This document shows, one piece after another, positions 9,732 through 31,029 of a DNA stretch of 32,000 bases. Below the pieces are notes generated by a model. It was not told the DNA's origin and ran no database searches. It worked only from the letters and a program-made list of their open reading frames with translations. The position numbers were made by a program, and so were the translations under genes. Every line of letters begins with the position of its first letter. Position 1 is the stretch's first letter. Source of the DNA: Kiritimatiella glycovorans. Lineage in GTDB: Bacteria; Verrucomicrobiota; Kiritimatiellia; Kiritimatiellales; Kiritimatiellaceae. The stretch covers positions 330,001 through 362,000 of the forward strand of contig NZ_CP010904.1 of assembly GCF_001017655.1 (NCBI RefSeq), written 5' to 3'.

Positions 9732-12302
9732 TCAGGGTTGAACCACACGGACGTCGTCGACGAACACGGTCGAATCGCCCGCCCCGTCGATGCCCCGAAC
9801 GATCAGTTCGTAGACGCCGGGGGCGGGAAGATCGAACTCGGCCTCAAAGGATTCGTAGCCCCCGCTCGCACCGGGCTGGAAGGTCCCTCCATTCAGGGCC
9901 CCAAGCAACACGGAGACCTGCTGGGTCGGATCGCCGTGATTCGTGCGCTGGGCGGCGTACAGGGAAACGGTACAGGTTCCCGCTTCGAGAAGAACGTACT
10001 GCGAGGCCTCACTCGTGTTCTGCAGGAACAGGACCTGGTCGCCCTGCGGAGGATCGGGGTTGCCCGAGGTGAAGGCCGTGTTTTTTTCGGAATACCCCGC
10101 CCCGCCGCTGAAATGCCACGGTACGCCGGAAGGCCCGTATTCGAACCGGTTGCCGTCGGGGTCGGGGAAGTCCGCCTCGAATCCTCCGTCCTGAAGGTCG
10201 CCGATCCCATCCGGACCCTCGTAACGCACGAGATCATCGCTGATCCCGAATCGGTCGCCGTAGAGGTTGTCCTTCGGGAATACCGTCCCGGGCGCGTCGT
10301 CCTTTACCGCGGTGCCCTCCATCGCGAACTGGTTGCCGAGGATACTCACGTACTCGAAGTCGGGACGGACGCGAACGCCGATGCGGTTGGTGTTCGCGGG
10401 ACCCGCGAAGAAGTTGTGATCGATGATCGCCGTGGATCCGTATTCGAGATGGATGTCGGTCGGACGAAACGCCCGCGCCGTCCCCGTGCCGAGGTAGGCG
10501 CTGCCCTGCGCGTCGGCGCAGTGAAAGACGTTGTGACTGAAGAAGAGCTGGCGCATGCCGTTGACGTAGATCCCGTAATCGCGCGTGAGGAAGTCGTTAT
10601 TGTTTATATGAAACGCCGGCTCTTCCCACCCGCCGTCCTCCACATCGGCAATGTCGATCAGGACGCCCGTCCGGCAGTGGGTCATCCGCGAGGCGCGCAC
10701 CTTGCCGTCTTCGGGATGCTTGTTGATCGCGGCGTAGACGATCCCGGTCTGCACCCCGTGAAAAGTCGAACTCTCCACCAGCGGGTTGTAGCAGTCGACC
10801 ATCTTCAACCCCGTCCCGCAGTCCCAGGTGTCGTTCGACGCATTCCCGTTTCCCCACACCATGATGTTTTCGAACTTCGGATACCAGCAGTGCACCGCCT
10901 GGAAGGCCGTATCGAAATAGGTTCCGTCGCCGGGTTCTTCCGGCCCGGCATGGACGTTGATCACGTTGAGGTTTCGGTTTTGCGTGACCCCCGTGTTCGG
11001 AATCCACATTTCAAACCCGTACGCAATGCCCGGGCGTCGGGCGACGATGGAAAAATCGCGCACCGTGAGCTGCATCCATGAAATCGAAGTGCCCTCGAAC
11101 TTCAATCCGCCGTCGGGGTTGTCGACCAGAAAGCGCGTGACGCCGGGTCCGGCGCCGCGGATCATCAGCCCGTATTGCGAGGTGTTGCCGGAGGCGGGCA
11201 CGATCAGCGGCTCGGCGAGCCGATAGGACCCGGGCGGAATCCAGATCGAGGCGTGGCGCAGGGTGCCGAGCCGGTCGAGCATATCACGAAAGGCGGGCAC
11301 GCAGTTTTGAACCCCGGAGGGATCGGCGCCGTAATAGATCGGATTGAATACCGACATGCGTGCGACGACACGCTGTTCGCCGGTGAGATGTGACGAGGTG
11401 AGATAGCGGTCCACCACGAACGAGGCCGATTCGGCGCCGTCGGGTTTGAAGGCGTGCATGACGAGCTGCGGGGGTTGGGCGGGATCGAATGCGAGGCCGT
11501 CGGCGTGAAAGATCCGGCGGCCGTCGACGAAGATCGAAGCCTCGCGCGACGCCCCGTCAAAAGAAAGCGTCACGAACCGGGGGTCGGCTCCGGCCAGCCG
11601 GTTCGAGGCCGTGAGGGTTCCGTTGACGAAGAATCGCGCGGTCCCGTCCCCTTCGAGTTCGAGCGCGACCGGCGCGGCCGGCCAGGCGTCCTCGCCGCCG
11701 TACGTGAGCCCGACGCCCCAGAAGGCACCCGCCGGTGGAGTGGGATCCCAGGGTTTGAGGATGGCGGTGAGGTCGATCCGCCGTGCGAACGCCATGTTCG
11801 TCAGGGGGCCGCCCTCGGAGACGAGCGTTGCCGAATTCGCATCCAGCCCCGCCAGATCAAAGATGAGATCGGCCCCCTCGACCCGCATCTCCGATCCCGT
11901 GTCGTCATCGTATTCCGTGTAGGGGTTCGCCGTGTAGCGGTTGACGTGATGACCCGCCTCGACGACGGCGCTGTCGGCACGAGAAAAATTGTCCACGGCC
12001 AGCAGATCGCCTCCCTGCATGACCCGGAGGAACATCGGCCGGGCCCCCGGGCCGACTGGGGCGAAGGAGCGCACCGTACGGTTGGTGTCCGCGTCCCCGA
12101 ACGCATAGCTGTACAGTTGCCAGCCCCCGGTCAGATCCGAGGAGTGATAAATCAGGTAGGGGGTGCTCGGCGTCGAATTCCAGTCGAGGACGAAGCGGGC
12201 GTCTTCCCAGTCTCCCCCCAGCCGCAGCGCGGCATCGGCGGCTGCCGCGCCCCAGAAAATCAGCGCCGCCGCGAACACCGCACGATGGAGCAAAGGTTTC
12301 AT
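9732..12302 (-). CDS. secreted multidomain right-handed beta-helix protein P1
   Basis: Domain order is a small N-terminal beta-module, a ConA/LamG-like region, a pectate-lyase-3-like beta-helix, and a C-terminal jelly-roll/CBM-like domain. I start it at ATG 12302 (MKPLLHRAVFAAALIFWGAAAADA, a signal peptide), 2 nt after the upstream stop (TGA-tc-ATG). The beta-helix entry motif is IYYGADPSGVQNCVPAFRDML....IWIPPGSYRL...LMIRGAGPGVTRFLV, and it is homologous to P2-P5. The C-terminal ~140 aa (GGFEADF...YELIVRG...VFVDDVRVV) looks like a carbohydrate-binding jelly roll. Confidence 0.75.
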   Translation of the reverse strand: MKPLLHRAVFAAALIFWGAAAADAALRLGGDWEDARFVLDWNSTPSTPYLIYHSSDLTGGWQLYSYAFGDADTNRTVRSFAPVGPGARPMFLRVMQGGDLLAVDNFSRADSAVVEAGHHVNRYTANPYTEYDDDTGSEMRVEGADLIFDLAGLDANSATLVSEGGPLTNMAFARRIDLTAILKPWDPTPPAGAFWGVGLTYGGEDAWPAAPVALELEGDGTARFFVNGTLTASNRLAGADPRFVTLSFDGASREASIFVDGRRIFHADGLAFDPAQPPQLVMHAFKPDGAESASFVVDRYLTSSHLTGEQRVVARMSVFNPIYYGADPSGVQNCVPAFRDMLDRLGTLRHASIWIPPGSYRLAEPLIVPASGNTSQYGLMIRGAGPGVTRFLVDNPDGGLKFEGTSISWMQLTVRDFSIVARRPGIAYGFEMWIPNTGVTQNRNLNVINVHAGPEEPGDGTYFDTAFQAVHCWYPKFENIMVWGNGNASNDTWDCGTGLKMVDCYNPLVESSTFHGVQTGIVYAAINKHPEDGKVRASRMTHCRTGVLIDIADVEDGGWEEPAFHINNNDFLTRDYGIYVNGMRQLFFSHNVFHCADAQGSAYLGTGTARAFRPTDIHLEYGSTAIIDHNFFAGPANTNRIGVRVRPDFEYVSILGNQFAMEGTAVKDDAPGTVFPKDNLYGDRFGISDDLVRYEGPDGIGDLQDGGFEADFPDPDGNRFEYGPSGVPWHFSGGAGYSEKNTAFTSGNPDPPQGDQVLFLQNTSEASQYVLLEAGTCTVSLYAAQRTNHGDPTQQVSVLLGALNGGTFQPGASGGYESFEAEFDLPAPGVYELIVRGIDGAGDSTVFVDDVRVVQP

Positions 12303-12304: not shown

Positions 12305-13588
12305 TCAGTTCAGATCGTCGGTGGTCATCGATCCGTCCCCGGCGTTGGTGTACCGGGTCAGCCACGCCCCGCCCCCGGTGAAGTCGTGCGTGCCCCCGAA
12401 CATGCTGTTGATGCAGGCGATGCCTTCGTCGCTTTCGTTGAAGACGGCCGTGCCCTCCATGTTGAAGTGGTTGCCGTCGATCAGCACATAGGCGCTGTTC
12501 GGCGAGATCGCAATGGCCCGGCGGTTCGGACTCGACGGTTCGACGAACTGACAGTGGTCGATGGTGATGTTGGAGGCGTATTCGAGATTCACATCGGTGG
12601 GATGGCCGGGGGCGGGGGTCGAACCGTCATCGAACCATTGGCTGCCGTCGCGCTCGCTGCAGTAAAAGAGGATGTGGCTCAGGTGCATCTGGCGCACGCC
12701 GACGGCGTGGACGCCGTACTCGTAGTAGTTGAAGTGGCAGTTGTCGACGTGGAACTGCGGTTTTTCCCAGCCGTCGCCGACGTTGACCCACTGCAGCTCG
12801 AGCGACCGGTTGCAGCCGACGAGATAGGTGTTGACGATCATCCCGCCACCGGCGCGGGACTCGCGGCGGCCGTGGTAGATGCCGGTCTGAACCTTGTTGA
12901 TGTGGCTGTCCTCGACCAGCGGGCCCACGCAGTCTTCGAGATGGATCCCGTAGACGGGGTAGATGGTCGGATCGGCGTATTCACCCTGCTTGCGGATATC
13001 GATATTGCAGAAACGCGGTTCCCAGGCGTTGACCACGCTGAATCCGCAGGTGAAATAGTTCGGCGAGGTGTGCTTAGGCGATGTGATATAGATGTTTTCG
13101 ACATTGAGCTGGCGGCAGAGCGGATTGCCCGCATCGCTCAGTTCGAAGGCAAAGGCCGCCGCAATCCCTGTGCGCTGCGCGACGAACGAGAGATCCCGCA
13201 GGTCCACATGGGCACGGGCCGCCGTGGTGCCGTCGACGTAGATCCCGCCCTCGTCATTATCGACGAGCAGTTCCGTCGCGTCCCGACCCCCGCCGCGGAT
13301 CATCAGCCCGTATTGCGAATCGTTGCCGTCGATGGTGAACACCACCCGGTGGTTCAGGCGGTACTGGCCCGGAGGGATAAAGACCTCGACGTGGCGGTTC
13401 GTCCCGAGGTCCGCGATCATCGCGTCGAACGCCGGCGCGGCGTCCTCGGTGCCGGAGGGATCCGCTCCGTAGTCGATCGGATTGTACACCCGGGCTTGTT
13501 CCAGAAACAGCGAGGCCTCCGGCTGAGCCGTCGCCGTTGCGACGCCGAGGGCCATCATCCCCAGCATGAACCTGATATAGGTTTTCAT
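12305..13588 (-). CDS. secreted right-handed beta-helix protein P2 (pectate-lyase-3-like)
   Basis: I start it at ATG 13588 (MKTYIRFMLGMMALGVATATAQP), preceded by GGAGGAG. The motifs are IDYGADPSGTEDAAPAFDAMI....VFIPPGQYRL...LMIRGGGRDATELLV. It is the closest paralog of the P1 beta-helix, sharing WEKPQFHVDNCHF / WEEPAFHINNNDF and PTD(V/I)(N/H)LEY. Confidence 0.75.
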   Translation of the reverse strand: MKTYIRFMLGMMALGVATATAQPEASLFLEQARVYNPIDYGADPSGTEDAAPAFDAMIADLGTNRHVEVFIPPGQYRLNHRVVFTIDGNDSQYGLMIRGGGRDATELLVDNDEGGIYVDGTTAARAHVDLRDLSFVAQRTGIAAAFAFELSDAGNPLCRQLNVENIYITSPKHTSPNYFTCGFSVVNAWEPRFCNIDIRKQGEYADPTIYPVYGIHLEDCVGPLVEDSHINKVQTGIYHGRRESRAGGGMIVNTYLVGCNRSLELQWVNVGDGWEKPQFHVDNCHFNYYEYGVHAVGVRQMHLSHILFYCSERDGSQWFDDGSTPAPGHPTDVNLEYASNITIDHCQFVEPSSPNRRAIAISPNSAYVLIDGNHFNMEGTAVFNESDEGIACINSMFGGTHDFTGGGAWLTRYTNAGDGSMTTDDLN

Positions 13589-13658: not shown

Positions 13659-14798
13659 TCACCAGTTCAGCGAGTCGTCCATCAGCCGTTTTGCCGTGTC
13701 CTCATCCTCGGTCGCCGTAAGAATCAGCGTACCCTCCGTACCGAATTCCTTTACGAACGGTTCGACCTGTTCGATGGGGGCGCCGTGCAGAAAGGCGGAT
13801 TTACCGGAGGCGTAGACCTTCTTCCAGATTCGGTCCCACCACACCGGATCGCTGGTGCGCGGCTGCCCGGCGCCGGGTTCCCACTGCAGCGCATTCAGCT
13901 CGGGGATCGTCAACACCGAGTCGAGATGCCGGATCGCGTCCGGGCCGTCGAGGTGGTAGACGGCGTAGTCGAGCCGCTGACACTGACGCCGGATGTGCGG
14001 CAATACGAACTCATCGTACATGTCCGGCGAGATCATGGCCGAGAAATCACACTGCACCTTGGCGGTCCGCCCCGGTCCCCAGGCGTTGAACGCCATGTAG
14101 GGCACCGACCCGTCCTCGCGGCGGATGAGTTCGGCGAGCGGGTCGTAGGCCTCGAAGTAGAGGTCGTCGAGCTGGTCGAGCAAACGGTGGATATCGTCGG
14201 GACAGTCGAGCAGGTGCATCAGCAGCTCCTGCGTCCCGAACAGTTCCGCCAGCGTATCCAGCCCCTCGATCAGATCGGGCATGGTGACCACGTACCGCCC
14301 GGCGGCACGCTCGCGCAGGAATTCCAGCGCCTCGGCCGTCCACTTCCAGTACGCCCCGTTCCGGTCGAACTGAAGCTGTTCCACTTCCGCCGGGTCCTCG
14401 TAGATCTCGCGGTACCATGTCGTCGTATCCTGGAAATCCACCGGCGTACCGAGAAAGATGTTCAGACTGCCCGGTCCGAGATAGGCCGTGTTTTCCGGGT
14501 AAATGATCCCGTAATGCGCGTAGGCGGAAAAAAACGCCTCCTTGTGCGTGTGGTTCGTCCGGTAATCCAGCCATTTCTCCCGCGGATCGGCGGGGAAGGG
14601 CGGGGGCTCCTCAAACGGCAGCGGGTTCGCCCGCGGTGCGCGCACCCCGAGCGCCCACCGCCCGCGAATCTCATGATTCCACCAGCCCGTCAGCGATTCC
14701 TTCGCCGCCGCCCAGTCCTCTTTGAAATACAGCGTATCCATCCCGATCCCCATGTTGATACCACCCGCGAACCCATCCTTATCGAACGGACTGTCCAT
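13659..14798 (-). CDS. URO-D/MetE-like TIM-barrel superfamily protein, divergent (no His-x-Cys motif)
   Basis: 379 aa. The layout resembles uroporphyrinogen-decarboxylase-like proteins (VQCDFSAMISPDMYDEFVLPHIRRQ...VYHLDGPDAIRHLDSVLTIPELNALQWEPG). No SD precedes ATG 14798, so Met16 or Met20 are alternative starts. It is co-directional with P2 and P1, with a 70-nt gap. Confidence 0.55.
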   Translation of the reverse strand: MDSPFDKDGFAGGINMGIGMDTLYFKEDWAAAKESLTGWWNHEIRGRWALGVRAPRANPLPFEEPPPFPADPREKWLDYRTNHTHKEAFFSAYAHYGIIYPENTAYLGPGSLNIFLGTPVDFQDTTTWYREIYEDPAEVEQLQFDRNGAYWKWTAEALEFLRERAAGRYVVTMPDLIEGLDTLAELFGTQELLMHLLDCPDDIHRLLDQLDDLYFEAYDPLAELIRREDGSVPYMAFNAWGPGRTAKVQCDFSAMISPDMYDEFVLPHIRRQCQRLDYAVYHLDGPDAIRHLDSVLTIPELNALQWEPGAGQPRTSDPVWWDRIWKKVYASGKSAFLHGAPIEQVEPFVKEFGTEGTLILTATEDEDTAKRLMDDSLNW

Positions 14799-20349: not shown

Positions 20350-21147
20350 ATGAACATATTGAATCATATAGAGCATTTCAGGGCGGATGATTGCGTCTAT
20401 AATAAACATGGCACCTTGGGTCCGCGTATTCAGACGGGGTTGGAGCTGTTTTACATTTACCGCGGTTCGGCACGGGTGGAGATCGACGGCGTGGAGCGTC
20501 GGGTGGGGGCGGGGCGGGTCACGCTGCTGACGCCGGGTCATGTGGAGTGGTTTCGTTTTTCGGAGCGTGAGCCGACGCATCACGGGTATGGGGTGATCGG
20601 GGGCGGGTCGGTGCCCGAGCGTATGGCGTCCGAGCCGGAGGCCCTGGGTCGCGTGTATTCGATGACGCCGCGTATACGCGAGGTGACCGAGTGGGCGAAG
20701 ACGCTGGAGCGGGATGAAACGCCGTCCGGACGTGCTCTGCAGTGTGAATTGGTGCGGGTGCTGTTCATGGAGTTCTTCCGTATCGCGGGTTACCCGGAGC
20801 GTCCGGAACCGCTCCCGCCGGAGCCGTTTCGCCGGGCACGATCCTTCGTTGACGACCACTATGCGGAGGAGATCGATCTGGAACGGATTGCCGCGGCGGC
20901 CGGCGTGACCCCCGCCCATACCATCCGTCTCTTCCGCCGTTTTCAGCACGAGACGCCGATCCGCTATCTGTGGCGCGTGCGTACCTCGCACGGCGCGCGC
21001 ATGCTGGTCGAGACGGGACTGAGCATCGCCGAAATCGCCTATCGCTGCGGCTTTCGTGCGCCCTACCATTTCGCGCGGCTCATCCGGAAACGCACCGGCG
21101 TCACGCCGCGCGAGTACCGGGCCAGGCAGTGGCGCATTGCGGAGTGA
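20350..21147 (+). CDS. AraC-family transcriptional regulator (cupin N-domain + HTH)
   Basis: The C-terminal dual HTH reads IDLERIAAAAGVTPAHTIRLFRR...LSIAEIAYRCGFRAPYHFARLIRKRTGVTPREYR. The gene is divergent from the URO-D gene across a 104-bp AT-rich gap. Confidence 0.9.
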   Translation: MNILNHIEHFRADDCVYNKHGTLGPRIQTGLELFYIYRGSARVEIDGVERRVGAGRVTLLTPGHVEWFRFSEREPTHHGYGVIGGGSVPERMASEPEALGRVYSMTPRIREVTEWAKTLERDETPSGRALQCELVRVLFMEFFRIAGYPERPEPLPPEPFRRARSFVDDHYAEEIDLERIAAAAGVTPAHTIRLFRRFQHETPIRYLWRVRTSHGARMLVETGLSIAEIAYRCGFRAPYHFARLIRKRTGVTPREYRARQWRIAE

Positions 21148-23384: not shown

Positions 23385-24061
23385 AGATCTCTGAAAACAG
23401 AAGAGGATTCACGCTCATCGAGATGCTGGTGACGGTCGCGATTATAGCCGTCCTGCTGTCTATCCTGGTCCCGGCTACAAACCGGGCTCGTATTTCGGCG
23501 GTGCGCGCAGCCTCGCGGGGGAACCTCCGCGAACTGCACCGGCTCATGCTCGAATACGCGGAGGATCACGGCGGCCGCACCGTGCGAAAAGACCAGTGGG
23601 ATGTGGGCAACTGGATACTGGAACTTTATCGGCAGGGATATTTCCAGTATACGGAAAATGGCGCGCTGGAGAACTGGAATACACGCGACAAGAACGAGAT
23701 GCTTTTTTCGCCTCTGGGCGTGATGGCCCATAAGGATTCGTTCAACCCTCCCGGTACGCACAAGACCTTTGCCATGAATTACAACTGCCAGGGAGTCAAC
23801 ATCATCAGCATCGCCACACCCGCGGAGACGGTCATGTTCTGTCCCTCCAAGTGGGTGGAATCGCTGGGGACCTGGACGGCGGTGTCGATGGGCAAAAACG
23901 CGCTGTTCAATAATCCGGACTGCTTCAACCCACCCTGGCCGGCGGCACAGGACGATCCGGCCGCGACCATGGATTACATCGCAGTGGACGGGCATGTGGG
24001 CACGATCGCGCGCAGGGACATTCCGGAGAACACGAATGAACGGTTCTGGTTGCCGCGATAG
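23381..24061 (+). CDS. prepilin-type N-terminal cleavage/methylation domain protein (pseudopilin-like)
   Basis: I start it at ATG 23381, overlapping the upstream stop (ATGA), with GGAGGA immediately upstream. It has a class-III signal (RRGFTLIEMLVTVAIIAVLLSILVPA) and the C-terminal ...YIAVDGHVGT motif common in PVC pseudopilin-like proteins. Confidence 0.8.
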   Translation: MKISENRRGFTLIEMLVTVAIIAVLLSILVPATNRARISAVRAASRGNLRELHRLMLEYAEDHGGRTVRKDQWDVGNWILELYRQGYFQYTENGALENWNTRDKNEMLFSPLGVMAHKDSFNPPGTHKTFAMNYNCQGVNIISIATPAETVMFCPSKWVESLGTWTAVSMGKNALFNNPDCFNPPWPAAQDDPAATMDYIAVDGHVGTIARRDIPENTNERFWLPR

Positions 24062-24194: not shown

Positions 24195-25994
24195 TCATTC
24201 CGTCGGCGTAATCCTGGCGCGGAACAGCCTCACGCGGTTGTTCGTGTCGGCGCCCCAGATCGCCCATTCGTGTTCGTCGTCGATCGGTTCAATGCTCGCC
24301 GCCTGCCCCGGCGAGATCCAGTCGCTGAAGTCGCTCGAGACCTGAAGCCCGTAACGCACGTCTTTCCGTTCGCGCGCTCGGCGCAGCCGCAGATTTAACG
24401 CTCCGTCGTCGCGTGCGAAGTGCAGCCGCGCGTCGGGGATCTTCTCCGCGCGGGAGGGATCTGAGCCGAGGGCGTATTCGGCGAAATTGACGTGTCCATC
24501 CGCATCGGCGTCGTCCATGCGCGCGTTCAGGTTCGTGTATTCCGGCAGCCACCGGTCGCGCCATCCGGTGAACCGGTTTTCGTCCACCTCGAACACGGCG
24601 AAGATGGTGAGGTCGTCATCGAGGGTGCGGTTGATCTGCGTCGTGTCGTTGCTGTAGCCGCCGGGGGTCTCCCAGTAGAGAAACCGGCGGCCCGTAGCGG
24701 GTACGGCGGTCAGCGATACCACCGTCCCGGCGGGAAACTCGGTCCCGTCCGGGGATTGATCGATCGTTCCGTCGCCGATCGCCCATGCGCGGAGCTGTGC
24801 AGCTCCGCGCTGCGTCACGCCGGGGTTGGAGGTGCCGGGCGGATCGACGCTGTCGACGGCCAGGAGGTGCGCGCCTGAGCGAACTTCAAGCGGGATGCCG
24901 TCGGCGTTATAGATGTTGCCGGCCAGGACGATGTCGCGGCAGTTTGCGTCGCCGCTGATCATCTGCCGGGTAAAATTGTTGCCCTGATGAAAGATGGTGC
25001 GTGCGATCGTCCCGTCGAAACAATCCTCGAGCCGGATGTCGATGTACTCGGGATTGTACCCGGTGTGTTTGTGATACATCAGGCAGTTTTCGATCGTGAA
25101 CCCGTAGTGGTTGCGAAGCACGATGCCGCTGTCCTCGCAGTTGATGTGGCTGCAGCTGAATCGCGCGCCGGAGTGGTGGCGGTCGCCGGGTACGAATACG
25201 ATTCCGTTGCGGCATTCGACGGCGACGCTGTTGAGGAACTCCAGCTCACGGCAGGAGGTGCCCACCAGTCGCACCCCCGTTTTGAGGTCCCAGAAGTAGC
25301 TGTGCCGGAACGAGGGGGCGGGGCAGTCGATGAGTTCAACTCCGATGTGCGCCATGAACTCTTCCTCCTGCGGCGGGCCGTAGGGGCCGCCGAAGACCAC
25401 GCTGTGAAAGACCGGGCGCCAGAAGCCGGTCAGGCGGAACGCGCCCCTGTAGTAATCGTGCGCGATGTCCTCGGAACGAAATTCGATGTTTCGGGCGGTA
25501 AAGGTGTGATGTTGTTTATTGCCGCCCGGCGGACAGTACAGCTCAATACCGACCCCCGCTTCACGCCGCGGGGCGAAAAAGCTGAAATCTCGCATCGCGA
25601 TGATCGGCGAACGCTGCGCGAAGACCATCTTCAGAATGCCTTCGGGATTGTGCGAGCGGAGCCGTGTCACGCCGATCCCCGCGCCGCGGATCTGCAGGTC
25701 AGCGGTCGAGGCGTAGAGTTCGACGCGCGAGAAGAGGTCGTATGCCCCGGGCGGAATCCGGATGACCGCGGCTCCCGCCGCCACCGCATCTTCGAAAGCC
25801 GCCTGGAACGCGGGCGCGTCGTCCCGTCCGTCGTCCGGCACCGCGTTGTAGGGTGGGGCGGTGACGTCGATCTCCCCGAGGGCGCCGGGAATACACAACG
25901 CGGCGATCAGCACGGCGATCGGCCCCGCGCCGGGTTTCCGGAATTGGGTTGTCGGCGATTTGGCCACGGCCCCCTCCGCATTACGTTGGCTCAT
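24195..25994 (-). CDS. secreted right-handed beta-helix protein P3
   Basis: The C-terminal extension carries an InlB-B-repeat-like domain, a Ca-binding-like motif and a small beta-module. The entry motif is IDVTAPPYNAVPDDGRDDAPAFQAAFEDAV...IRIPPGAYDL...LQIRGAGIGVTRL, followed by AWAIGDGTIDQSPDGTEFPAGTVVSLTAVPATGRRFLYWE, DDADADGHVNFAEYALGSDP and ...RYGLQVSSDFSDWI...RLFRARI. ATG 25994 has no SD. GTG 25967, preceded by GGAGG with a 5-nt spacer, is an equally good start. Confidence 0.75.
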   Translation of the reverse strand: MSQRNAEGAVAKSPTTQFRKPGAGPIAVLIAALCIPGALGEIDVTAPPYNAVPDDGRDDAPAFQAAFEDAVAAGAAVIRIPPGAYDLFSRVELYASTADLQIRGAGIGVTRLRSHNPEGILKMVFAQRSPIIAMRDFSFFAPRREAGVGIELYCPPGGNKQHHTFTARNIEFRSEDIAHDYYRGAFRLTGFWRPVFHSVVFGGPYGPPQEEEFMAHIGVELIDCPAPSFRHSYFWDLKTGVRLVGTSCRELEFLNSVAVECRNGIVFVPGDRHHSGARFSCSHINCEDSGIVLRNHYGFTIENCLMYHKHTGYNPEYIDIRLEDCFDGTIARTIFHQGNNFTRQMISGDANCRDIVLAGNIYNADGIPLEVRSGAHLLAVDSVDPPGTSNPGVTQRGAAQLRAWAIGDGTIDQSPDGTEFPAGTVVSLTAVPATGRRFLYWETPGGYSNDTTQINRTLDDDLTIFAVFEVDENRFTGWRDRWLPEYTNLNARMDDADADGHVNFAEYALGSDPSRAEKIPDARLHFARDDGALNLRLRRARERKDVRYGLQVSSDFSDWISPGQAASIEPIDDEHEWAIWGADTNNRVRLFRARITPTE

Positions 25995-26168: not shown

Positions 26169-26204
26169 TTCTGTACGCGTGGGTTCGACGGGGGAATGTT
26201 CCGG

Positions 26205-27956
26205 TCAAGGGTCATCAGAGGTCACCTCCACGCGGTAGAAGGCTGCGGCTTCGCCGGGGGCCGGGGACCAGACGGCCCACTCGTAATCCTCGTCGACGGG
26301 GTCGAGCGTCAGCGCAGCCTCGAGGGGCGCCCATGTGATGAGGTCGCTCGAGTGGAGGAGTTGATAGGAGAGATCCTTGATCCCGCGCGCCCTGCGCAGA
26401 CGAATCCGGGGCGTCGTCCCCGAGCGGGCTGCGCGGAGACGGTCTTCCGGGATGTCTGTTGCAAGGCGCGGGTCACTGGCAAAGGCGTATTCCGCCAGGT
26501 TCACGTACCCGTCGCCGTCATAATCCTCCATGCGTTCCGTGAGATGGGTGGCGCCCGGCATCATCCTGCGCCGCCATCCGTCATAGCGGTCCTCGTCGAT
26601 ATCGAAATGAGCGAAGAGCGTTCGGTCTCCGTTCATCGTCAACGCCAGTGTCCGGTTGGTATCGATCTGCCCCTGCGCCAGTTCCCAGTAGAGAAAGGTC
26701 CGGCCCGCATCGGGTGTGGCTTCGAGATCTACCATCGAACCCGCCGTAAACAGATCCTGGTCCGGGGTGGCGTCGATGACGCCGTCGCCGACCGTCCATG
26801 CGCGAAGTTGATATGGGGTCCGCTCGACGACGGAGGGATTGGTGCCATCGGAGGGAGCGTAATTATCGACGATTTCAATTCGCGAGGCTCCCTGCTGAAT
26901 TTCGGCCGGTACGCCCTCGGCGTTAAAGAGATTGGCCGCCAGGTGCAGTTGGTAGCAGTCCCCGTCTCCGCTGATCATGATGCGTGTCGTATTGTTCGGC
27001 TGGTGGAAAATGTTGCGGGCGATCACGCCCCGTCCGCAGGCCTCGAGCCGGATGTCCAGGTACTCGGGATTGACGTCCTCGTGGGCATGGTACATGAGGT
27101 TGTTCTGGAGGCAGAAGCCCCGGATCCGTCGCATCAGGATGCCGCTATCGCGGCAATTGATGTGGCAGGACTGGATGCGGACCCCGGTGTGCACGCGGTC
27201 GAGGGGATCGATCAGGATGCCGGTCCGGCACCCCACGGCGAAGGAACGGATAAACGAGGGTTCGCGCCCGGAGGTCCCGATGAGCCGATAGCCGGTCTGC
27301 AGCACCCACATGTAACAGTGGCGGAACGTGGGGCCGGGACAGTCGATCAGTTCGATGCCGCACGTACCCGCATAGGGTTTCTCCTGGGTCGGCCCGAAGG
27401 CGGCCCCGAAGATGACGTTGTGGAAGACGGGGCGCCAGAGCCCGGTGGCCTTGAGCCCGCCGTTGAAGTAGTCGTGATGGAATTCGACCGCGCGAAACTC
27501 AACGTTGCGGACAATGAGGGTGTGGCGCTGTTTATTGCCGCCGGGCGGAGAGAAGAGTTCGATTCCCTGTCCTGCCTCGCGCCGGTCGGCGAAGAAGGAG
27601 AGATCGGTGAAGGTCAGTTGCGAGGTGCGCTCGGTGAACGTAAGGCGGAAGACACCGCGCGGGTTATGCGAGTAGAGACCGGTCACGCCGTGGCCCGACC
27701 CGCGGATGGAGAGGTTCGCCGAGTCCGCCTGCATGTCCACGCGCGAAAAGAAATCGTAGCGCCCCGGTCCGATTTGTACGGCCCCTCCGCCGGCATCGAG
27801 GACGTCCTGCAGCGCGGCGCGGAACGCGGGGGCGTCGTCCCGTCCGTCGTCCGGCGTGGCGCCGTATTCACGTACGTCTACACTCATTGCCGCGGCACCC
27901 CCCGGTGAGACGAGGACGGCGGCAAGAAATAAAGCTGAAAGCCGGGCAGGGCGCAT
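26205..27956 (-). CDS. secreted right-handed beta-helix protein P4 (same architecture as P3)
   Basis: The ATG lies 2 nt after the P5 stop (TAA-gt-ATG) and the N-terminus is a signal peptide (MRPARLSALFLAAVLVSPGGAAA). Motifs are YGATPDDGRDDAPAFRAAL..., GGNKQRHTL.VRNVEFR and ATGLWRPVFHNV. The C-terminal EDYDGDGYVNLAEYAFASDP and ...SYQLLHSSDLITWAP...AFYRVEV parallel P3. Confidence 0.75.
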   Translation of the reverse strand: MRPARLSALFLAAVLVSPGGAAAMSVDVREYGATPDDGRDDAPAFRAALQDVLDAGGGAVQIGPGRYDFFSRVDMQADSANLSIRGSGHGVTGLYSHNPRGVFRLTFTERTSQLTFTDLSFFADRREAGQGIELFSPPGGNKQRHTLIVRNVEFRAVEFHHDYFNGGLKATGLWRPVFHNVIFGAAFGPTQEKPYAGTCGIELIDCPGPTFRHCYMWVLQTGYRLIGTSGREPSFIRSFAVGCRTGILIDPLDRVHTGVRIQSCHINCRDSGILMRRIRGFCLQNNLMYHAHEDVNPEYLDIRLEACGRGVIARNIFHQPNNTTRIMISGDGDCYQLHLAANLFNAEGVPAEIQQGASRIEIVDNYAPSDGTNPSVVERTPYQLRAWTVGDGVIDATPDQDLFTAGSMVDLEATPDAGRTFLYWELAQGQIDTNRTLALTMNGDRTLFAHFDIDEDRYDGWRRRMMPGATHLTERMEDYDGDGYVNLAEYAFASDPRLATDIPEDRLRAARSGTTPRIRLRRARGIKDLSYQLLHSSDLITWAPLEAALTLDPVDEDYEWAVWSPAPGEAAAFYRVEVTSDDP

Positions 27957-27958
27957 AC

Positions 27959-29152
27959 TTATTCAAACAGGTTGTCGGTAATGCGGATGCCGGAACTTCC
28001 GGCTGTAGTGTCGAGCGCCCGGGATTCGGGGGCGGCAAAGATGTTGTCCATGATCAGCAGATCCCGGGAGGTGTTTTGCAGCCGGATCATCGTCCGCGCG
28101 GGATTGACGGGGCTGCCGAACACGTTATCGGAGATGATGCCTCCGAACACCCCGTCGAGGAGGATGTCGACGTAGGGCCAGGTGTCGTCCGTGGTGAGGT
28201 TGTTGAAGGTACAGTTGTTGATCTGAAAAAACTTCCGGCCCACGAGTTGGATCCCCGCATCGCGGCAGTGGAAGTCGCAGGAATCTGCAACCAGCTGCGG
28301 CTCGTTTCCTCGATCGTAAACGTAGAGTCCGGTCCGGCAGCCCTGGATCGTACAGCCGAGCAGGGATCCGTCCTCCGGTGCTCCGTTTTCATCCCGGCTG
28401 TCGAACGAGACCCCGATCTTCGCCGAGAAGACCTGGCAGTCCTGAAGGCTGGGCGCGTAGCAGTTGTCGATGACGATCCCGGCCATGGCGGCGAACCGGG
28501 GCGAGGAGTCCGATACATTCGTGCTCACTCCGGGGCCGAAGGGCCCGGAGACCGTGACATGCTGCAGCAGCGGACGCCAGCATCCGTCGACACTCAGCCC
28601 GATATCGAAGTAATCCTCCGAGGGGTCGACGCCGCGGATCTCCACGGATTCGGCCAGCACCGCGCGGTTCTGACGTGCGCCTCCCGGCGGGGCGGTGATT
28701 TCGATGGCCGTGCCCGCCCCGGGAAGGTCGGCGAAGAGTGTGAAGTCGCGCAGCGTATACTGTGAACGCCGGCTCCCGTTCGTGATCCTGAACACCCCGC
28801 CCGTCGAGGTGGCGTAGAGCGTCGACACTCCGATTCCCTCGCCGAGGATGGAGATGTTGACCTCTCCGACCGCGATCGTGGCGGGGGTGGAGAGGTGGTA
28901 TGCGCCGGCGGGGATGCGGATTGCGGCCCGTTCCGCCGTCGCGGCTTGTTCGAGCGCCCGTTGAAACGCCGGGGCGTCGTCCAGCCCGTCGTCCGGCACC
29001 GCGTTGTAGGGTGGGGCGGTGACGTCGATCTCAAGCGCCCGGACACCGGCCGTCGACAGGAGCAGAGCCGTGAGGACCGCCGCTGCGATACGCGCTCTTC
29101 GACACGCGCCGCGAGCGCGTCCCGGGGAACGCTGTACATGCGGATGGGGCAC
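27959..29152 (-). CDS. secreted right-handed beta-helix protein P5 (core only, no C-terminal extension)
   Basis: The track ORF runs to 29254 but would overlap the sulfatase 3' end by 100 nt, and it has no internal Met. I start it at GTG 29152, preceded by GGAGG with a 5-nt spacer and lying 2 nt after the sulfatase stop (TAG-tc-GTG). This gives a signal-like N-terminus (..RRARIAAAVLTALLLSTAGVRA). The entry motif is IDVTAPPYNAVPDDGLDDAPAFQRAL...IRIPAGAYHL. Confidence 0.7.
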   Translation of the reverse strand: MPHPHVQRSPGRARGACRRARIAAAVLTALLLSTAGVRALEIDVTAPPYNAVPDDGLDDAPAFQRALEQAATAERAAIRIPAGAYHLSTPATIAVGEVNISILGEGIGVSTLYATSTGGVFRITNGSRRSQYTLRDFTLFADLPGAGTAIEITAPPGGARQNRAVLAESVEIRGVDPSEDYFDIGLSVDGCWRPLLQHVTVSGPFGPGVSTNVSDSSPRFAAMAGIVIDNCYAPSLQDCQVFSAKIGVSFDSRDENGAPEDGSLLGCTIQGCRTGLYVYDRGNEPQLVADSCDFHCRDAGIQLVGRKFFQINNCTFNNLTTDDTWPYVDILLDGVFGGIISDNVFGSPVNPARTMIRLQNTSRDLLIMDNIFAAPESRALDTTAGSSGIRITDNLFE

Positions 29153-29154
29153 GA

Positions 29155-31029
29155 CTACCTCCGGAACACGAACCTCATTTCCATGTCGTAGTTTTGAGGG
29201 TTGTCGCCGGTATAGGCGGTCCCGAAGCGGTACGGGTCGTCGTGGAACGCCCACAGGGCCAGGGTCTGTTTCGGCAGTTTCTTCGTCGGATGCATGCGCA
29301 CGAAGAGACGCGCATGCTTCGGGACTTCCGCGTCGAAGATGACGCGCTGCCGGAACTGGTTGCCCAGGCGCCGGGCGGGGATGGTCTGTTCGCCCAGCTT
29401 GCGGCCGTTGTGGAAGAGTTCGACCACCAGGTCCGCCACGCCGTAGGGCCGTCCCCAGGCGGGCGTCTGAAATTCGATCGCGTGCAGCCGTCCCGTCTCG
29501 GCGCGGAAGGTCTGGCCGATGTGAGGGTGCTGCGCGAAGTCGATCGACTGTTCGTGCTGCTTCTGCGCGGTGTTGACGACGACAAATTCCGGGTATTCGG
29601 CGTAGACCGGGTGGCGGTCCGGAATCTCGCGCCGGTACTGGTCGCAGCGTGCGCGCAGAGCCTCCAGTCGCCCCTTTTGTGCGGGATCCTCCGCGAGGTT
29701 GTTCATCTCGAGGGGATCTTCCGCGAGGTCGAAGAGCTGTTCACAGACGGGGTCGACACTGACGAAACGCACGTACTTCCAGCGTTCGGTCCGCACGCCC
29801 ACGCTCTTTGGAATATCGCCCGGCGCCGGCTCGTAGGTGTGTTCATAGAACCAGTCCTTCCGCCAGGCCGGGTGGCGGCCGCGCACCAGGGGCGTGAGGT
29901 CGCGCCCCTGCATGGTCGCGGGCGCTTCCACGCCTGCGAGCGACAGGATGGTCTGAGCATAGTCGACATTGAGCACCATCTCCTCCCGGCGCTGACCCCG
30001 AAGATTTTCCGGACTGCGGGGATCGAAGACGAGCAGCGGAATACGAATCGAGGGTTCGTACATAAACCATTTCCCGTGGAATCCGTACTCGTATTCGAAG
30101 TGGCCCTGGTCGCTGGTGTAGATCAGGATCGTATTGTCAGCCAGCCCCAGTTCGCTCAGCCGCTGTCGCAGTCGCCCGACCTGCCGGTCCACGCCGCTCA
30201 CCAGCGTGAAGTACTGCTTCATGTGGCGGTGATGGTGTTCGAGGGTCGGGTTGCGGCCCCAGCCCCATTCGCGGGCGATGGACCCCTGTTCGCCGGCGAT
30301 CGAATCCTGCAGGAACTTCGGCTGCGCGTCGAACGCCTCCGCGCTGAAGAGTTCGGGCACCGGCATGTCTTCGGGGTCATACAGATGATCGAGCCTGCGG
30401 TCGTAGCCGTCCCAGGGACCGTGGCACGCCTTGAAACTGACGGAGAGGCAGAACGGCTTGTCCTGCCCGGACGCCTGTTCGACAAACTCGACCGCGTCGT
30501 CGCCCATGATTTCGGTCATGTGTTTTTCGGGCTGCCGGGGATCGGGATAGTACTTGCCCTGTCCGACCACACCGCGCCAGAAGTCGAACCGGCCCGCGGG
30601 ACTTTTCAGATGTTCCGGATGCGTCGCGCCCACGCCCCACTTGCCGATGAATCCCGTGTAGTAACCGTGTCGGCGCAGAATGGCCGGGTACGTCGCGTCA
30701 ACCTGATCCTCCGTGAACGGTTCGATGAAATCGCGGATGCCGTGCGTGCGCATGTACTGGCCGGTCAGGACCGTCGCGCGGCTGGCCACACAGATGGACG
30801 TAACCACGAACGCGTTCTCGAACGCCGTGCCCTCCGCCGCCATCGCATCCAGATGCGGGGTCTTCACTGCGGCGTTTCCGTAACACCCCAGCGTGTCCTT
30901 GCGCTGGTCGTCCGTCATCAGAAAGATGATGTTCGGCCGCCCGCCCGGGGCACCGCGGGTAAGACCGCTCATGCCGAAGGCTGCAATCGCACCGGCGGAT
31001 GTCCCTGTAAGAAAAGATCTTCGTTCCAT
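29155..31029 (-). CDS. Tat-signal sulfatase (formylglycine type) with an additional ~170-aa C-terminal domain
   Basis: I start it at ATG 31029, with AGGAG 5 nt upstream. The N-terminus MERRSFLTGTSAGAIAAFG is a twin-arginine signal. Sulfatase motifs are PNIIFLMTDDQRKD and the FGly site TSICVASRATVLTGQ (C-x-A-x-R). The last ~170 aa (from about DQYRREIPDRH... to the C-terminus) lie outside the sulfatase fold as I know it. The track's N-terminal extension to 31185 runs through AT-rich promoter-like DNA. Confidence 0.9.
   Translation of the reverse strand: MERRSFLTGTSAGAIAAFGMSGLTRGAPGGRPNIIFLMTDDQRKDTLGCYGNAAVKTPHLDAMAAEGTAFENAFVVTSICVASRATVLTGQYMRTHGIRDFIEPFTEDQVDATYPAILRRHGYYTGFIGKWGVGATHPEHLKSPAGRFDFWRGVVGQGKYYPDPRQPEKHMTEIMGDDAVEFVEQASGQDKPFCLSVSFKACHGPWDGYDRRLDHLYDPEDMPVPELFSAEAFDAQPKFLQDSIAGEQGSIAREWGWGRNPTLEHHHRHMKQYFTLVSGVDRQVGRLRQRLSELGLADNTILIYTSDQGHFEYEYGFHGKWFMYEPSIRIPLLVFDPRSPENLRGQRREEMVLNVDYAQTILSLAGVEAPATMQGRDLTPLVRGRHPAWRKDWFYEHTYEPAPGDIPKSVGVRTERWKYVRFVSVDPVCEQLFDLAEDPLEMNNLAEDPAQKGRLEALRARCDQYRREIPDRHPVYAEYPEFVVVNTAQKQHEQSIDFAQHPHIGQTFRAETGRLHAIEFQTPAWGRPYGVADLVVELFHNGRKLGEQTIPARRLGNQFRQRVIFDAEVPKHARLFVRMHPTKKLPKQTLALWAFHDDPYRFGTAYTGDNPQNYDMEMRFVFRR

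What the first reader, a model, noticed from the sequence alone, without database searches (positions are those of the whole stretch)
9732..31029. Uncharacterised sulfated-glycan degradation island built around five paralogous beta-helix proteins
From 9.7 to 31 kb essentially every gene is secreted or glycan-related. There are five mutually homologous right-handed beta-helix proteins: P1 9732-12302, P2 12305-13588, P3 24195-25994, P4 26205-27956 and P5 27959-29152. All share the entry motif Y(G/N)A.PDG.DDAPAF...(I/V).IP(P/A)G.Y.L and (I/L).(I/L).G.G.G.(T/S).L. The island also holds a Tat sulfatase, a GH106-like enzyme, two URO-D-fold proteins, an AraC regulator, a toroid-like secreted protein, a pseudopilin-like protein and a sugar SBP. 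The beta-helix fold is used by endo-acting polysaccharide hydrolases and lyases (GH28, GH82 iota-carrageenase, GH90 endorhamnosidase, PL1/3/6/9). I cannot place P1-P5 in any characterised family by eye. Five paralogs, a rhamnosidase-family enzyme and a sulfatase together suggest a multi-enzyme pathway for a complex sulfated, possibly rhamnose-containing polysaccharide (ulvan or rhamnan-sulfate-like, or another algal or host glycan). The endo-acting enzymes of such a pathway would be undescribed.
Basis: partly seen in the sequence, partly recalled or inferred. Interest (0 to 1): 0.75.

Follow-up and report, generated by a model that had tools for sequence, protein, structure and literature searches.

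The report
Paired beta-helix enzymes, sulfated rhamnose-glycan locus
A gene cluster in the anaerobe Kiritimatiella glycovorans combines a rhamnose-sulfate-type sulfatase, a rhamnosidase and five secreted beta-helix proteins from an unstudied family that comes in matched pairs, making it a good candidate for a new set of enzymes that break down sulfated, rhamnose-containing slime polysaccharides.

Summary
The window is Kiritimatiella glycovorans chromosome. At 9.7-31 kb it carries five secreted, mutually homologous right-handed beta-helix proteins (BLASTP E 1e-14 to 0), a GH106 rhamnosidase, a Tat-exported S1 sulfatase, two URO-D-fold proteins, an AraC regulator, a weakly (alpha/alpha)6-like protein, a pseudopilin and a sugar-binding protein.

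P1-P5 match no characterised family. Sequence profiles hit solved structures only through the shared N-terminal cap motif. AlphaFold models (pLDDT 86-88) match known beta-helix enzymes only at fold level (12-17% identity). GH28, AlgE and RbmB catalytic signatures are absent.

The family is real and unnamed: 230 cluster representatives at E<=1e-30, nearly all metagenomic.

The sulfatase's best solved relative is the ulvan exo-L-rhamnose-3-sulfate sulfatase P36_S1_25 (39% identity).

Gene sets recur elsewhere: UroD2-AraC-P2-P1 in Tichowtungia and marine contigs; sulfatase ortholog followed by P5-like and P4-like genes; GH106/GH78 plus both URO-D orthologs.

New here: the family splits into complementary "E-only" and "H-only" forms. 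These are always adjacent, or fused in that order.

Enzyme activity and substrate remain inferred. This is a solid candidate new glycanase family, not a categorically new system.

The parts
9732..12302 (-). P1: secreted multidomain beta-helix protein of the 'E-only' type. It has a ~310-aa N-terminal domain partly alignable with the N-terminal region of P0014 (the sixth paralog, which carries a LamG-like domain), the beta-helix, and a 137-aa C-terminal domain with no Pfam match.
   Evidence: Orthologs at 47-55% identity always follow a P2 ortholog. The start codon lies 2 nt after the P2 stop (TGAtcATG).
12305..13588 (-). P2: secreted single-domain beta-helix protein of the 'H-only' type.
   Evidence: PF12708 at 32.3 bits, above the cut-off. 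It is 100% identical to a K. glycovorans hypothetical protein. AF2 model pLDDT 85.6. Orthologs at 58-61% identity occur in L001-L004 and L019-L023.
13659..14798 (-). UroD1: cytoplasmic URO-D-superfamily protein, 70 nt upstream of P2 on the same strand.
   Evidence: PF01208 at 18 bits, below the cut-off. 24% identity to UroD2. An ortholog at 68% identity sits next to the UroD2 ortholog in L027.
15080..19081 (+). GH106 alpha-L-rhamnosidase-family enzyme (1333 aa) with a LamG-like domain and a GH2-N-like C-terminal domain; it has a signal peptide.
   Evidence: PF17132 E 6.9e-195 over 1-737/743. PDB 6q2f E 1e-164 and 5mqm E 3e-140. GH106 also lies next to family members in L002 and L027.
19112..20245 (-). 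UroD2: cytoplasmic URO-D-superfamily protein, and together with UroD1 the most conserved protein of the gene set.
   Evidence: PF01208 at 28.9 bits, above the cut-off. 65-67% identity in L001, L019 and L027, always near the AraC ortholog. Only marginal PDB hits: CdmB and MtaA at E 0.05.
20350..21147 (+). AraC-family regulator with a cupin-type sensor domain, divergent from UroD2.
   Evidence: PF12833 E 6e-21. Orthologs at 49-51% identity in L001, L019, L021 and L027, and a fragment in L022.
21522..23384 (+). Secreted 620-aa protein, possibly with an (alpha/alpha)6 barrel; no family assigned.
   Evidence: Only sub-threshold Pfam hits to GH127, GH76 and GH88. PDB E 0.05. No counterpart in any related locus.
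23381..24061 (+). Pseudopilin-like protein with a prepilin N-terminal methylation motif. It overlaps the stop of the previous gene by ATGA.
   Evidence: PF07963 at 35.6 bits and TIGR02532. The overlap was read directly.
24195..25994 (-). P3: secreted 'H-only' beta-helix protein with an InlB B-repeat, a DxDxDG calcium-binding-like motif and a C-terminal domain.
26205..27956 (-). P4: secreted 'H-only' beta-helix protein with the same architecture as P3 (49% identity). Its start lies 2 nt after the P5 stop.
   Evidence: The NCBI model (560 aa) starts 23 residues later and so omits the signal peptide.
27959..29152 (-). P5: secreted single-domain 'E-only' beta-helix protein. Its GTG start lies 2 nt after the sulfatase stop.
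   Evidence: PF12708 at 36.4 and PF13229 at 38.1 bits, both above cut-off. AF2 model pLDDT 87.5, pTM 0.88. Junction. Residue types.
29155..31029 (-). Tat-exported formylglycine (S1) sulfatase, S1_25-like, with an extra ~150-aa C-terminal domain. It is the first gene of the sulfatase-P5-P4(-P3) operon.
   Evidence: PF00884 E 8.6e-48 plus SGSH_C. Best PDB hit is 6HR5 (P36_S1_25), E 1e-86, 39% identity over 423 aligned residues. Orthologs at 47% (L026) and 38.5% (L024) lie next to family members.
31256..32000 (+). ABC-type extracellular sugar-binding protein; runs off the window.
   Evidence: PF01547 E 2.9e-8. SBP_bac_1 also sits between the sulfatases in L028.

Best explanation
This is a PUL-like catabolic locus of an anaerobic Kiritimatiellales bacterium for an extracellular sulfated, rhamnose-containing polysaccharide. 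Candidates are algal, diatom or cyanobacterial-mat exopolymers of the ulvan or rhamnan-sulfate type.

Proposed working order:
1. The five secreted beta-helix proteins bind and cleave the polymer backbone. They belong to an uncharacterised family of the pectin-lyase-fold superfamily.
2. They act as differentiated pairs. 'E-only' members (P1, P5) keep a Glu/Asp pair, E294/D363 in P5 ORF numbering, that I take as the candidate acid/base of a glycoside hydrolase. 'H-only' members (P2, P3, P4) have lost the Glu but keep a His-x-Asn motif. They supply either a second chemistry or a binding/positioning function.
3. The co-transcribed S1_25-like exo-sulfatase then removes 3-O-sulfate from terminal 6-deoxy-L-hexose (rhamnose).
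4. GH106 releases rhamnose.
5. Oligomers and monomers enter through the adjacent ABC binding protein.
6. Two highly conserved cytoplasmic URO-D-fold proteins carry out an unknown downstream step.
7. The AraC protein induces the set.

Shown: gene content, homology, fold, family size, conserved residues, operon junctions and synteny. Inferred: catalytic activity, endo mode, the roles of the two types, the substrate, and the order of steps.
For: - Paralogy and secretion signals.
- Beta-helix fold with confident models.
- The family is real. Exhaustive HMMER finds 230 representatives at E<=1e-30 and 1983 at E<=1e-10. All those sampled are unnamed and metagenomic.
- Conserved polar ladder D170, R197, W226, Y266, E294, H327, D363, R387, N404, spaced 24-40 residues apart. 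D170, W226, D363, R387 and N404 are kept in all five paralogs.
- The nearest relatives by sequence cap and by fold are all glycan-active enzymes: GH87, GH55, GH110, GH28, GH82, AlgE, RbmB and phage depolymerases including the Sf6 endorhamnosidase.
[quoted passage not shown] It is translationally coupled to P5 and P4.
- GH106 is confirmed.
- Recurrent contexts:
  - UroD2-AraC-P2-P1 in Tichowtungia aerotolerans and Tara contigs.
  - GH106 next to P2-P1.
  - Sulfatase ortholog followed by an E-only and then an H-only gene (L024), and the L026 arrangement.
  - GH106 + GH78 + a fused pair + UroD1 + UroD2 + AraC (L027).
  - AraC + three members + two sulfatases + a binding protein (L028).
- Pairing: single-domain types count EH 72, E-only 38, H-only 38. 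All 11 two-domain fusions read [E-only or neither] followed by [H-only].
- Spring et al. 2016 noted that GH78/GH106 dominate this genome and proposed rhamnose-containing sulfated polymers as food (PMC5148204).
Against: - No biochemical data exist for any family member.
- K. glycovorans did not grow stably on the commercial sulfated polymers tested, nor on rhamnose.
- I could not read model coordinates, so the groove and the E294-D363 geometry are inferred from spacing only.
- E294 and H327 are each missing in some paralogs, so neither can be universally catalytic.
- S1_25 also contains a 3-sulfo-L-fucose sulfatase, so a fucose-based substrate is not excluded.
- The sulfatase's 39% identity does not fix its specificity.
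- One P2-P1 locus (L004) sits among GH32 and MFS genes, with no sulfatase or rhamnosidase within 10 kb.
- One member lies in a polysaccharide biosynthesis cluster (L025).
- Streptococcal PfbA, an adhesin, is among the fold matches.
- dbCAN was not available, so an unsolved CAZy family cannot be fully excluded.
Confidence: 0.6

Rival explanations
1. The beta-helix proteins are not depolymerases. They would be glycan-binding or glycan-modifying proteins: adhesins like PfbA, C5-epimerase-like modifiers, or surface proteins that capture polymer. Actual cleavage would be done by other enzymes.
For: - AlgE4/AlgE6 epimerases and the adhesin PfbA are among the best profile and fold matches.
- H-only domains in fusion proteins often lack D363 as well.
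- One member sits in a sulfated-EPS biosynthesis cluster with glycosyltransferases, a sulfotransferase and APS kinase (L025).
- P3 and P4 carry InlB-type repeats and calcium-binding-like motifs typical of surface proteins.
- Neighbours include PATR surface-repeat proteins.
Against: - The AlgE catalytic motif YG(F/I)DPH(D/E) is absent.
- D363, R387 and N404 are 88-89% conserved across the family and kept in all five paralogs. That is more than a binding scaffold needs.
- The operon link to an exo-sulfatase, and recurrent linkage to exo-rhamnosidases, calls for a chain-cleaving partner. No other candidate is present in the conserved modules.
Confidence: 0.17
2. The locus targets a fucose-based or other sulfated glycan (fucoidan-like or host mucin-like) rather than a rhamnose-sulfate polymer. 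Alternatively it is a juxtaposition of separate modules with different substrates.
For: [quoted passage not shown]
- Identity to 6HR5 is only 39%.
- The P2-P1/URO-D/AraC module and the sulfatase-P5-P4 module occur separately in other genomes.
- The Tichowtungia locus has a different sulfatase (23% identity).
- L004 lacks all the partner genes.
Against: - No fucosidase family is present in the window or in any of the related loci examined. The glycosidases that recur are GH106 and GH78 rhamnosidases.
- L027 joins GH106, GH78, a fused family pair and both URO-D orthologs in one locus. This links the modules.
Confidence: 0.13
3. P1-P5 belong to an existing CAZy GH or PL family that has no solved structure or Pfam model. 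Under this reading nothing is undescribed except these members.
For: dbCAN/CAZy HMMs could not be run. NCBI labels the Tichowtungia ortholog 'glycosyl hydrolase family 28-related'.
Against: - That label reflects only PF12708.
- GH28 motifs are absent.
- The rhamnogalacturonidase NCBIfam model scores 16 bits against a cut-off of 500.
- Profile searches of all PDB chains as of 2026 give only cap-motif matches.
- The cluster members sampled are named 'hypothetical' or carry no name.
- No paper in the library mentions these accessions.
Confidence: 0.1

Closest known systems
Beta-helix glycoside hydrolases that carry the PF12708 N-terminal cap (GH87 alpha-1,3-glucanase, GH55, GH110, GH28 rhamnogalacturonase, GH82 iota-carrageenase)
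   Same: Right-handed parallel beta-helix. Shared N-terminal cap motif (YGA.GDG..DD..AF ... IP.G.Y). Secreted and polysaccharide-directed. Acidic residues on successive helix turns.
   Different: Sequence similarity ends after about 100-130 residues. Fold matches reach only TM 0.35-0.67 at 9-17% identity. GH28 signature motifs are absent. The conserved set here (D170, R197, E294, H327-x-N, D363, R387, N404) is its own.
AlgE4/AlgE6 mannuronan C5-epimerase A-modules and the Vibrio cholerae VPS lyase RbmB
   Same: Among the best profile and Foldseek matches (E about 1e-8, TM 0.45-0.67). Similar size and the same cap. They act on anionic exopolysaccharides.
   Different: The AlgE motif YG(F/I)DPH(D/E) is absent. 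No Lys is conserved that could correspond to the RbmB catalytic K227.
[quoted passage not shown] 2019, as summarised in PMC9096561)
   Same: An S1_25-like sulfatase is linked to an alpha-L-rhamnosidase. The logic is the same: desulfate, then remove terminal rhamnose.
   Different: Here the rhamnosidase is GH106, not GH78, and is not fused to the sulfatase. No PL24/25/28/40 ulvan lyase and no TonB/SusD system are present. The candidate chain-cleaving enzymes are the beta-helix family. The host is an anaerobic Kiritimatiellales bacterium.
Phage Sf6 tailspike endorhamnosidase and other phage beta-helix depolymerases
   Same: Fold match at TM 0.60-0.65. These are endo-acting enzymes on rhamnose-containing polysaccharide.
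   Different: 12-14% identity. The tailspikes are trimers with active sites between subunits. There is no phage context here (and the gene map).
Sulfatase-rich CAZyme clusters of PVC bacteria (Pontiella, Lentimonas, marine Verrucomicrobiota)
   Same: Many sulfatases sit beside glycosidases. Pseudopilin-type genes and ABC uptake take the place of SusC/D. AraC-type control is used (PMC6388578, PMC8857213, PMC5148204).
   Different: The papers I checked (PMC5148204, PMC8857213, PMC6388578) returned no mention of beta-helix proteins, and the one searched for URO-D (PMC5148204) none of that either. The paired and fused E-only/H-only architecture has not been reported in the library searched.

Membership tests
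Pectin-lyase-fold superfamily / PF12708 (Pect-lyase_RHGA_epim) | Right-handed parallel beta-helix fold | tested here: met
   AF2 models of P5 (pLDDT 87.5, pTM 0.88) and P2 (pLDDT 85.6) consist of stacked short strands. All top Foldseek PDB hits are beta-helix proteins.
Pectin-lyase-fold superfamily / PF12708 (Pect-lyase_RHGA_epim) | Pfam score at or above the gathering cut-off (27 bits) | tested here: inconclusive
   P2 at 32.3 and P5 at 36.4 bits pass. P1 at 21.4, P3 at 19.9 and P4 at 16.4 bits do not. 38 of 44 family members match at E<=0.001.
GH28 (polygalacturonase / rhamnogalacturonase) | Conserved catalytic motifs NTD, (G/Q)DD, G(H/D)G, R(I/V)K in order, and a full-length profile match | tested here: not met
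   NTD, DD and RIK are absent from P1-P5. The NCBIfam rhamnogalacturonidase model scores 16.4 bits against a cut-off of 500. PDB GH28 chains align only over query positions 23-92.
AlgE-type mannuronan C5-epimerase | Catalytic motif YG(F/I)DPH(D/E) (established from the AlgE4 structure; recalled, not re-read here) | tested here: not met
   No DPH(D/E) in any paralog. The alignments to 5lw3 and 2pyg stop at residue ~144, before the motif.
RbmB-type polysaccharide lyase | Catalytic lysine base (K227) in the cleft | tested here: not met
   K227 is described in PMC12993940. No alignment column of the 155-member family has Lys at 50% or more.
Phage-type endorhamnosidase (Sf6 tailspike) | Trimeric tailspike with an intersubunit active site and acidic catalytic pair | not testable with these tools
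   Only a fold-level match (TM 0.60-0.65, 12-14% identity). Oligomeric state and residue equivalence could not be examined.
S1 formylglycine sulfatase, subfamily S1_25 | Sulfatase domain with a C/S-x-P/A-x-R maturation motif | tested here: met
   PF00884 E 8.6e-48. The motif reads ...SICVASRATVLTG....
S1 formylglycine sulfatase, subfamily S1_25 | Closest characterised relative lies in S1_25; SulfAtlas subfamily HMM assignment | tested here: inconclusive
   The best PDB hit is P36_S1_25 (6HR5): 295 bits, one full-length stretch, 39% identity. The next hits score 244 bits in two stretches. The identity of 6HR5 comes from PMC9096561. SulfAtlas HMMs were not available.
GH106 alpha-L-rhamnosidase | Full-length match to the family model and to solved GH106 structures | tested here: met
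   PF17132 at 650 bits over model positions 1-737/743. 6q2f E 1e-164 and BT0986 5mqm E 3e-140. Catalytic residues were not checked individually.
URO-D superfamily / MtaA-CmuA corrinoid methyltransferases | Family model above cut-off; zinc-binding His-x-Cys motif of MtaA | tested here: not met
   PF01208: UroD2 at 28.9 bits passes the 23.9 cut-off and UroD1 at 18.0 does not. TIGR01463 scores 24 bits against a cut-off of 235. PDB hits to CdmB and MtaA are marginal at E 0.05. The MtaA H-x-C motif aligns to an invariant H248-x-D250. So these are superfamily members, not members of the methyltransferase family.
Tat-exported protein | Twin-arginine motif (S/T)RRxFL followed by a hydrophobic segment | tested here: met
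   The sulfatase begins MERRSFLTGTSAGAIAAFGMSG. This was read directly; no predictor was run.
Type IV pilin-like / pseudopilin | Prepilin N-terminal cleavage/methylation motif | tested here: met
   PF07963 at 35.6 bits (cut-off 21.2) and TIGR02532 at 34.5 bits (cut-off 16.3).

The most novel reading that the evidence does not exclude
The beta-helix family is a two-component glycan-cleaving system. An ancestral 'E+H' enzyme would have split into obligate partners, E-only and H-only. These act as a heterodimer or as consecutive domains, either forming a composite site or coupling two chemistries on a sulfated deoxyhexose polymer.

The equally conserved cytoplasmic UroD1/UroD2 pair would perform a so far unknown sugar-processing step. 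Since they are the nearest relatives of corrinoid methyltransferases, one possibility is oxygen-independent removal of O-methyl groups from methylated rhamnose or fucose.
Probability: 0.25. Interest if true: 0.78.

Novelty: new variant of a known kind. Interest (0 to 1): 0.57.

Why it matters
Sulfated, rhamnose- and fucose-rich exopolymers from algae, diatoms and cyanobacterial mats are a slow-turnover carbon pool. The enzymes that open their backbones are largely unknown, especially in anoxic settings where Kiritimatiellales are the sulfatase-rich specialists.

This locus offers:
- A defined, testable enzyme set: a candidate new glycanase family of a few hundred sequence clusters, almost all from uncultured organisms.
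- A built-in hint to substrate, from the S1_25-like sulfatase and the GH106/GH78 partners.
- An unusual paired or fused architecture that predicts cooperative action.
- Two very conserved URO-D-fold proteins, which point to a missing cytoplasmic step.

Success would add a CAZy family and a pathway. Failure would show that these abundant beta-helix proteins are binders rather than enzymes.

Tried and rejected
- **Limited locus searches.**
  - The search for related loci with the divergent alignment failed for lack of a conserved stretch.
  - The genome scan with the P2 alignment returned only two loci and missed even K. glycovorans.
  - The metagenome scan gave few useful loci.
  - The word-indexed protein search saw only 5-15 relatives. 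The exhaustive HMMER search was what revealed the family size.
- **Exact look-ups.** P4 and the sixth paralog P0014 were not on record, so the genomic context of P0014 is unknown.
- **Distant hit.** P0019 (L006) sits in an unrelated context.
- **Window scans.** Promoter/terminator scans were no better than shuffles. There are no Rfam families or tRNAs in the window, and composition gives no sign of a mobile island.
- **Literature.** Searches for rhamnan-sulfate endo-enzymes, for URO-D proteins in glycan loci, and for the protein accessions found nothing relevant.
- **Rejected assignments.** Membership in GH28, AlgE-type epimerases and RbmB-type lyases was considered and rejected on motif tests. 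A prophage tailspike origin was rejected from the gene map.
- **Model coordinates.** Predicted-model coordinates are not exposed, so a groove and residue distances could not be measured.

Full report
**Origin and gene map**

P2 is 100% identical to a hypothetical protein of Kiritimatiella glycovorans on a 2.95-Mb contig, so the window is from that chromosome. K. glycovorans is an anaerobic halophile from a cyanobacterial mat.

With about 63% G+C, many spurious ORFs overlap the real genes. Third-position GC picks one coding frame per region.

- Positions 1-9.6 kb hold housekeeping genes: LolA-like, ABC/SufBD, NrdR, Lnt and HAD.

| Gene | Coordinates | Strand |
|---|---|---|
| P1 | 9732-12302 | - |
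| P2 | 12305-13588 | - |
| UroD1 | 13659-14798 | - |
| GH106 | 15080-19081 | + |
| UroD2 | 19112-20245 | - |
| AraC | 20350-21147 | + |
| 620-aa secreted protein | 21522-23384 | + |
| pseudopilin | 23381-24061 | + |
| P3 | 24195-25994 | - |
| P4 | 26205-27956 | - |
| P5 | 27959-29152 | - |
| sulfatase | 29155-31029 | - |
| sugar-binding protein | from 31256 | + |

Supporting calls for the map are 4, 5, 9, 10, 71 and 102.

Three junctions are only 2 nt apart: sulfatase TAGtcGTG P5, P5 TAAgtATG P4, and P2 TGAtcATG P1. The 620-aa gene and the pseudopilin overlap by ATGA. The sulfatase is therefore almost certainly co-translated with P5 and P4.

The five proteins share a homologous domain of about 360 residues. 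BLASTP E-values run from 7e-14 to 0 and the alignment is. All five have signal-like N-termini.

The accessory annotations hold up as follows:
- GH106 is unambiguous.
- The sulfatase has a twin-arginine leader and the Cys-x-Ala-x-Arg motif.
- One URO-D copy passes the Pfam cut-off and the other does not.
- The '(alpha/alpha)6 toroid' call rests on sub-threshold hits only.

**What P1-P5 are**

Pfam gives only PF12708/PF13229 hits. P2 and P5 are above the cut-off and the other three below. NCBIfam gives nothing meaningful.

Profile searches of all PDB chains used the five paralogs and then a 44-member family alignment. They match GH55, GH87, GH110, GH28, GH82, AlgE epimerases, RbmB, phage depolymerases and the adhesin PfbA. 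In nearly every case (all glycan-active enzymes among them) the match covers only the N-terminal cap, query positions about 25-135.

AlphaFold models of P5 and P2 are confident: pLDDT 87.5 and 85.6, pTM 0.88 and 0.86. Both are beta-helices. Foldseek against the PDB gives the same list at TM 0.35-0.67 and 9-17% identity.

The signature motifs of GH28 and AlgE are absent, as is a conserved lysine like the RbmB catalytic base. P1-P5 therefore belong to the pectin-lyase-fold superfamily but to none of its characterised families.

**The family is real**

An exhaustive HMMER search of 1.84 billion cluster representatives found 230 proteins at E<=1e-30, mostly matching over nearly the whole domain. 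A further count of 1983 reach E<=1e-10. Twenty sampled clusters are metagenomic and named 'hypothetical' or not at all. K. glycovorans has a sixth paralog elsewhere, P0014, with a LamG-like domain plus the beta-helix.

In 155 aligned members the conserved polar residues, in P5 ORF numbering, are:

| Residue | Conservation |
|---|---|
| D170 | 71% |
| R197 | 77% |
| W226 / R227 / P228 | conserved block |
| Y266 | 77% |
| E294 | 72% |
| H327-x-N329 | 69% / 64% |
| D363 | 88% |
| N377 | 81% |
| R387 | 88% |
| N404 | 89% |

The spacing of 24-40 residues is about one helix turn. I read this as a line of residues along one face, which is the usual place for a substrate cleft.

**Two complementary types (new here)**

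The commonest combination at positions 294/327/363/387 is E-H-D-R.

- P1, P5 and P0014 keep E294 but have Asp or Arg in place of H327.
- P2, P3 and P4 keep H327-x-N329 but have Gly or Arg in place of E294.

Every P2 ortholog is H-only and every P1 ortholog is E-only, in all six independent P2-P1 loci. The same pairing appears in unrelated loci L024 and L026. In L027 the two types are fused in one 822-aa protein.

Across 163 proteins the single-domain types count EH 72, E-only 38, H-only 38 and neither 4. All 11 two-domain fusions are [E-only or neither] followed by [H-only], and never the reverse order. This Rosetta-stone pattern argues that the two types work together.

My preferred reading is that E-only members retain a Glu/Asp acid-base pair and are the hydrolases, while H-only members add a second function. 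Which function that is remains open.

**Partners and substrate**

The sulfatase's best solved relative is 6HR5: E 1e-86, one full-length stretch, 39% identity. [quoted passage not shown] The same subfamily also holds a 3-sulfo-L-fucose sulfatase (PMC9096561).

With GH106 next door, and given the reported dominance of GH78/GH106 in this genome (PMC5148204), a sulfated rhamnose-containing polymer is the most economical substrate. It is not proven. The strain did not grow stably on commercial sulfated polymers or on rhamnose.

**Co-conservation**

- UroD2 (65-67% identity), AraC (49-51%), P2 (58-61%) and P1 (47-55%) recur together in Tichowtungia aerotolerans (L001) and in Tara Oceans contigs (L019-L021). 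The AraC-P2-P1 part also occurs in L022, and P2-P1 alone in L002-L004.
- GH106 flanks P2-P1 in L002.
- SASA-type esterases flank the module in L001 and L019.
- Orthologs of the window's sulfatase, including its extra C-terminal domain, sit beside family members in L026 (47% identity). In L024 (38.5%) the order sulfatase, E-only, H-only is the same as in the window.
- L027 unites GH106, GH78, a fused pair, UroD1 (68%), UroD2 (65%) and AraC (51%).
- L028 has AraC, three tandem members, two sulfatases and a binding protein.
- Locus G+C ranges from 35 to 58%, so several lineages are involved.
- Exceptions: L004 has the pair among GH32/MFS genes. L025 has a member inside a sulfated-EPS biosynthesis cluster.

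**The URO-D pair**

UroD1 and UroD2 are cytoplasmic and are the most conserved proteins of the set. They are only marginally similar to the corrinoid methyltransferases CdmB and MtaA (E 0.05). The MtaA zinc motif His-x-Cys aligns with an invariant His248-x-Asp250. They are superfamily members of unknown function. No corrinoid protein is present in the window.

**Verdict**

The locus is a modular, conserved, PUL-like system whose candidate backbone-cleaving enzymes form an uncharacterised beta-helix family with a paired or fused architecture.

It is a new variant of a known kind of system, a CAZyme/sulfatase locus with beta-helix glycanases. It is a well-defined target for biochemistry rather than a categorical surprise.

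Noticed in passing
window 9732-13588 and 24195-29152; loci L001-L004, L019-L024, L026, L027: The family splits into complementary 'E-only' forms (Glu294 kept, His327 lost) and 'H-only' forms (the reverse). These are always adjacent genes, or fused in the order E-only then H-only. Counts are 38 versus 38 single-domain proteins, and all 11 fusions have an H-only domain second, preceded by a domain lacking His327 (E-only in 8, neither residue in 3).
   Followed up: yes
window 13659-14798 and 19112-20245; L001 7806-8948; L019 266-1408; L027 10496-12865: Two URO-D-fold cytoplasmic proteins are the most conserved genes of the set (65-68% identity across lineages) and lie side by side in L027. The MtaA zinc motif His-x-Cys is replaced by an invariant His-x-Asp. 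Their function is unknown.
   Followed up: partly
L019 1427-2437; L027 12873-13901: A membrane fatty-acid-desaturase-family gene (PF00487, normally oxygen-dependent di-iron enzymes) sits between the UroD2 and AraC orthologs in two loci. It is absent from the K. glycovorans window.
   Followed up: no
L001 6495-7757; L019 5058-8645: SASA-type (sialate O-acetylesterase-like) esterases accompany the P2-P1 module; in L019 one is part of a 1195-aa multi-esterase. This hints that the substrate is O-acetylated. No such gene is in the window.
   Followed up: no
L025 1-12020: One family member lies inside a polysaccharide biosynthesis cluster with glycosyltransferases, a sulfotransferase, a methyltransferase and APS kinase. 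That member lacks D363 and R387.
   Followed up: partly
L026 4545-7949; L027 2533-7960; L024 8594-10075: Large PATR (autotransporter-associated beta-strand repeat) proteins flank family members. In L026 one carries an H-only beta-helix domain at its C-terminus.
   Followed up: partly
window 23381-23384: The 620-aa secreted protein and the pseudopilin overlap by ATGA with a GGAGGA just upstream. This suggests the two are made together. Neither has a counterpart in the related loci.
   Followed up: partly
window 29155-29640: The sulfatase has an extra C-terminal domain of about 150 aa with no Pfam match. It is conserved in the orthologs of L026 and L024.
   Followed up: partly
window 24195-24824 and 26205-26840: P3 and P4 end in an InlB B-repeat, a DxDxDG...N..EY..(G/A)SDP calcium-binding-like motif and a roughly 90-aa terminal domain. 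This may serve for surface attachment.
   Followed up: no
window 27888-27956: The public NCBI model of P4 (560 aa) starts 23 codons downstream of the ORF's first ATG and so omits the predicted signal peptide.
   Followed up: partly
window 9047-9637: A small ORF between the HAD gene and P1 has a sub-threshold match to the '23S rRNA intervening sequence protein' four-helix-bundle family. Its role is unknown.
   Followed up: no
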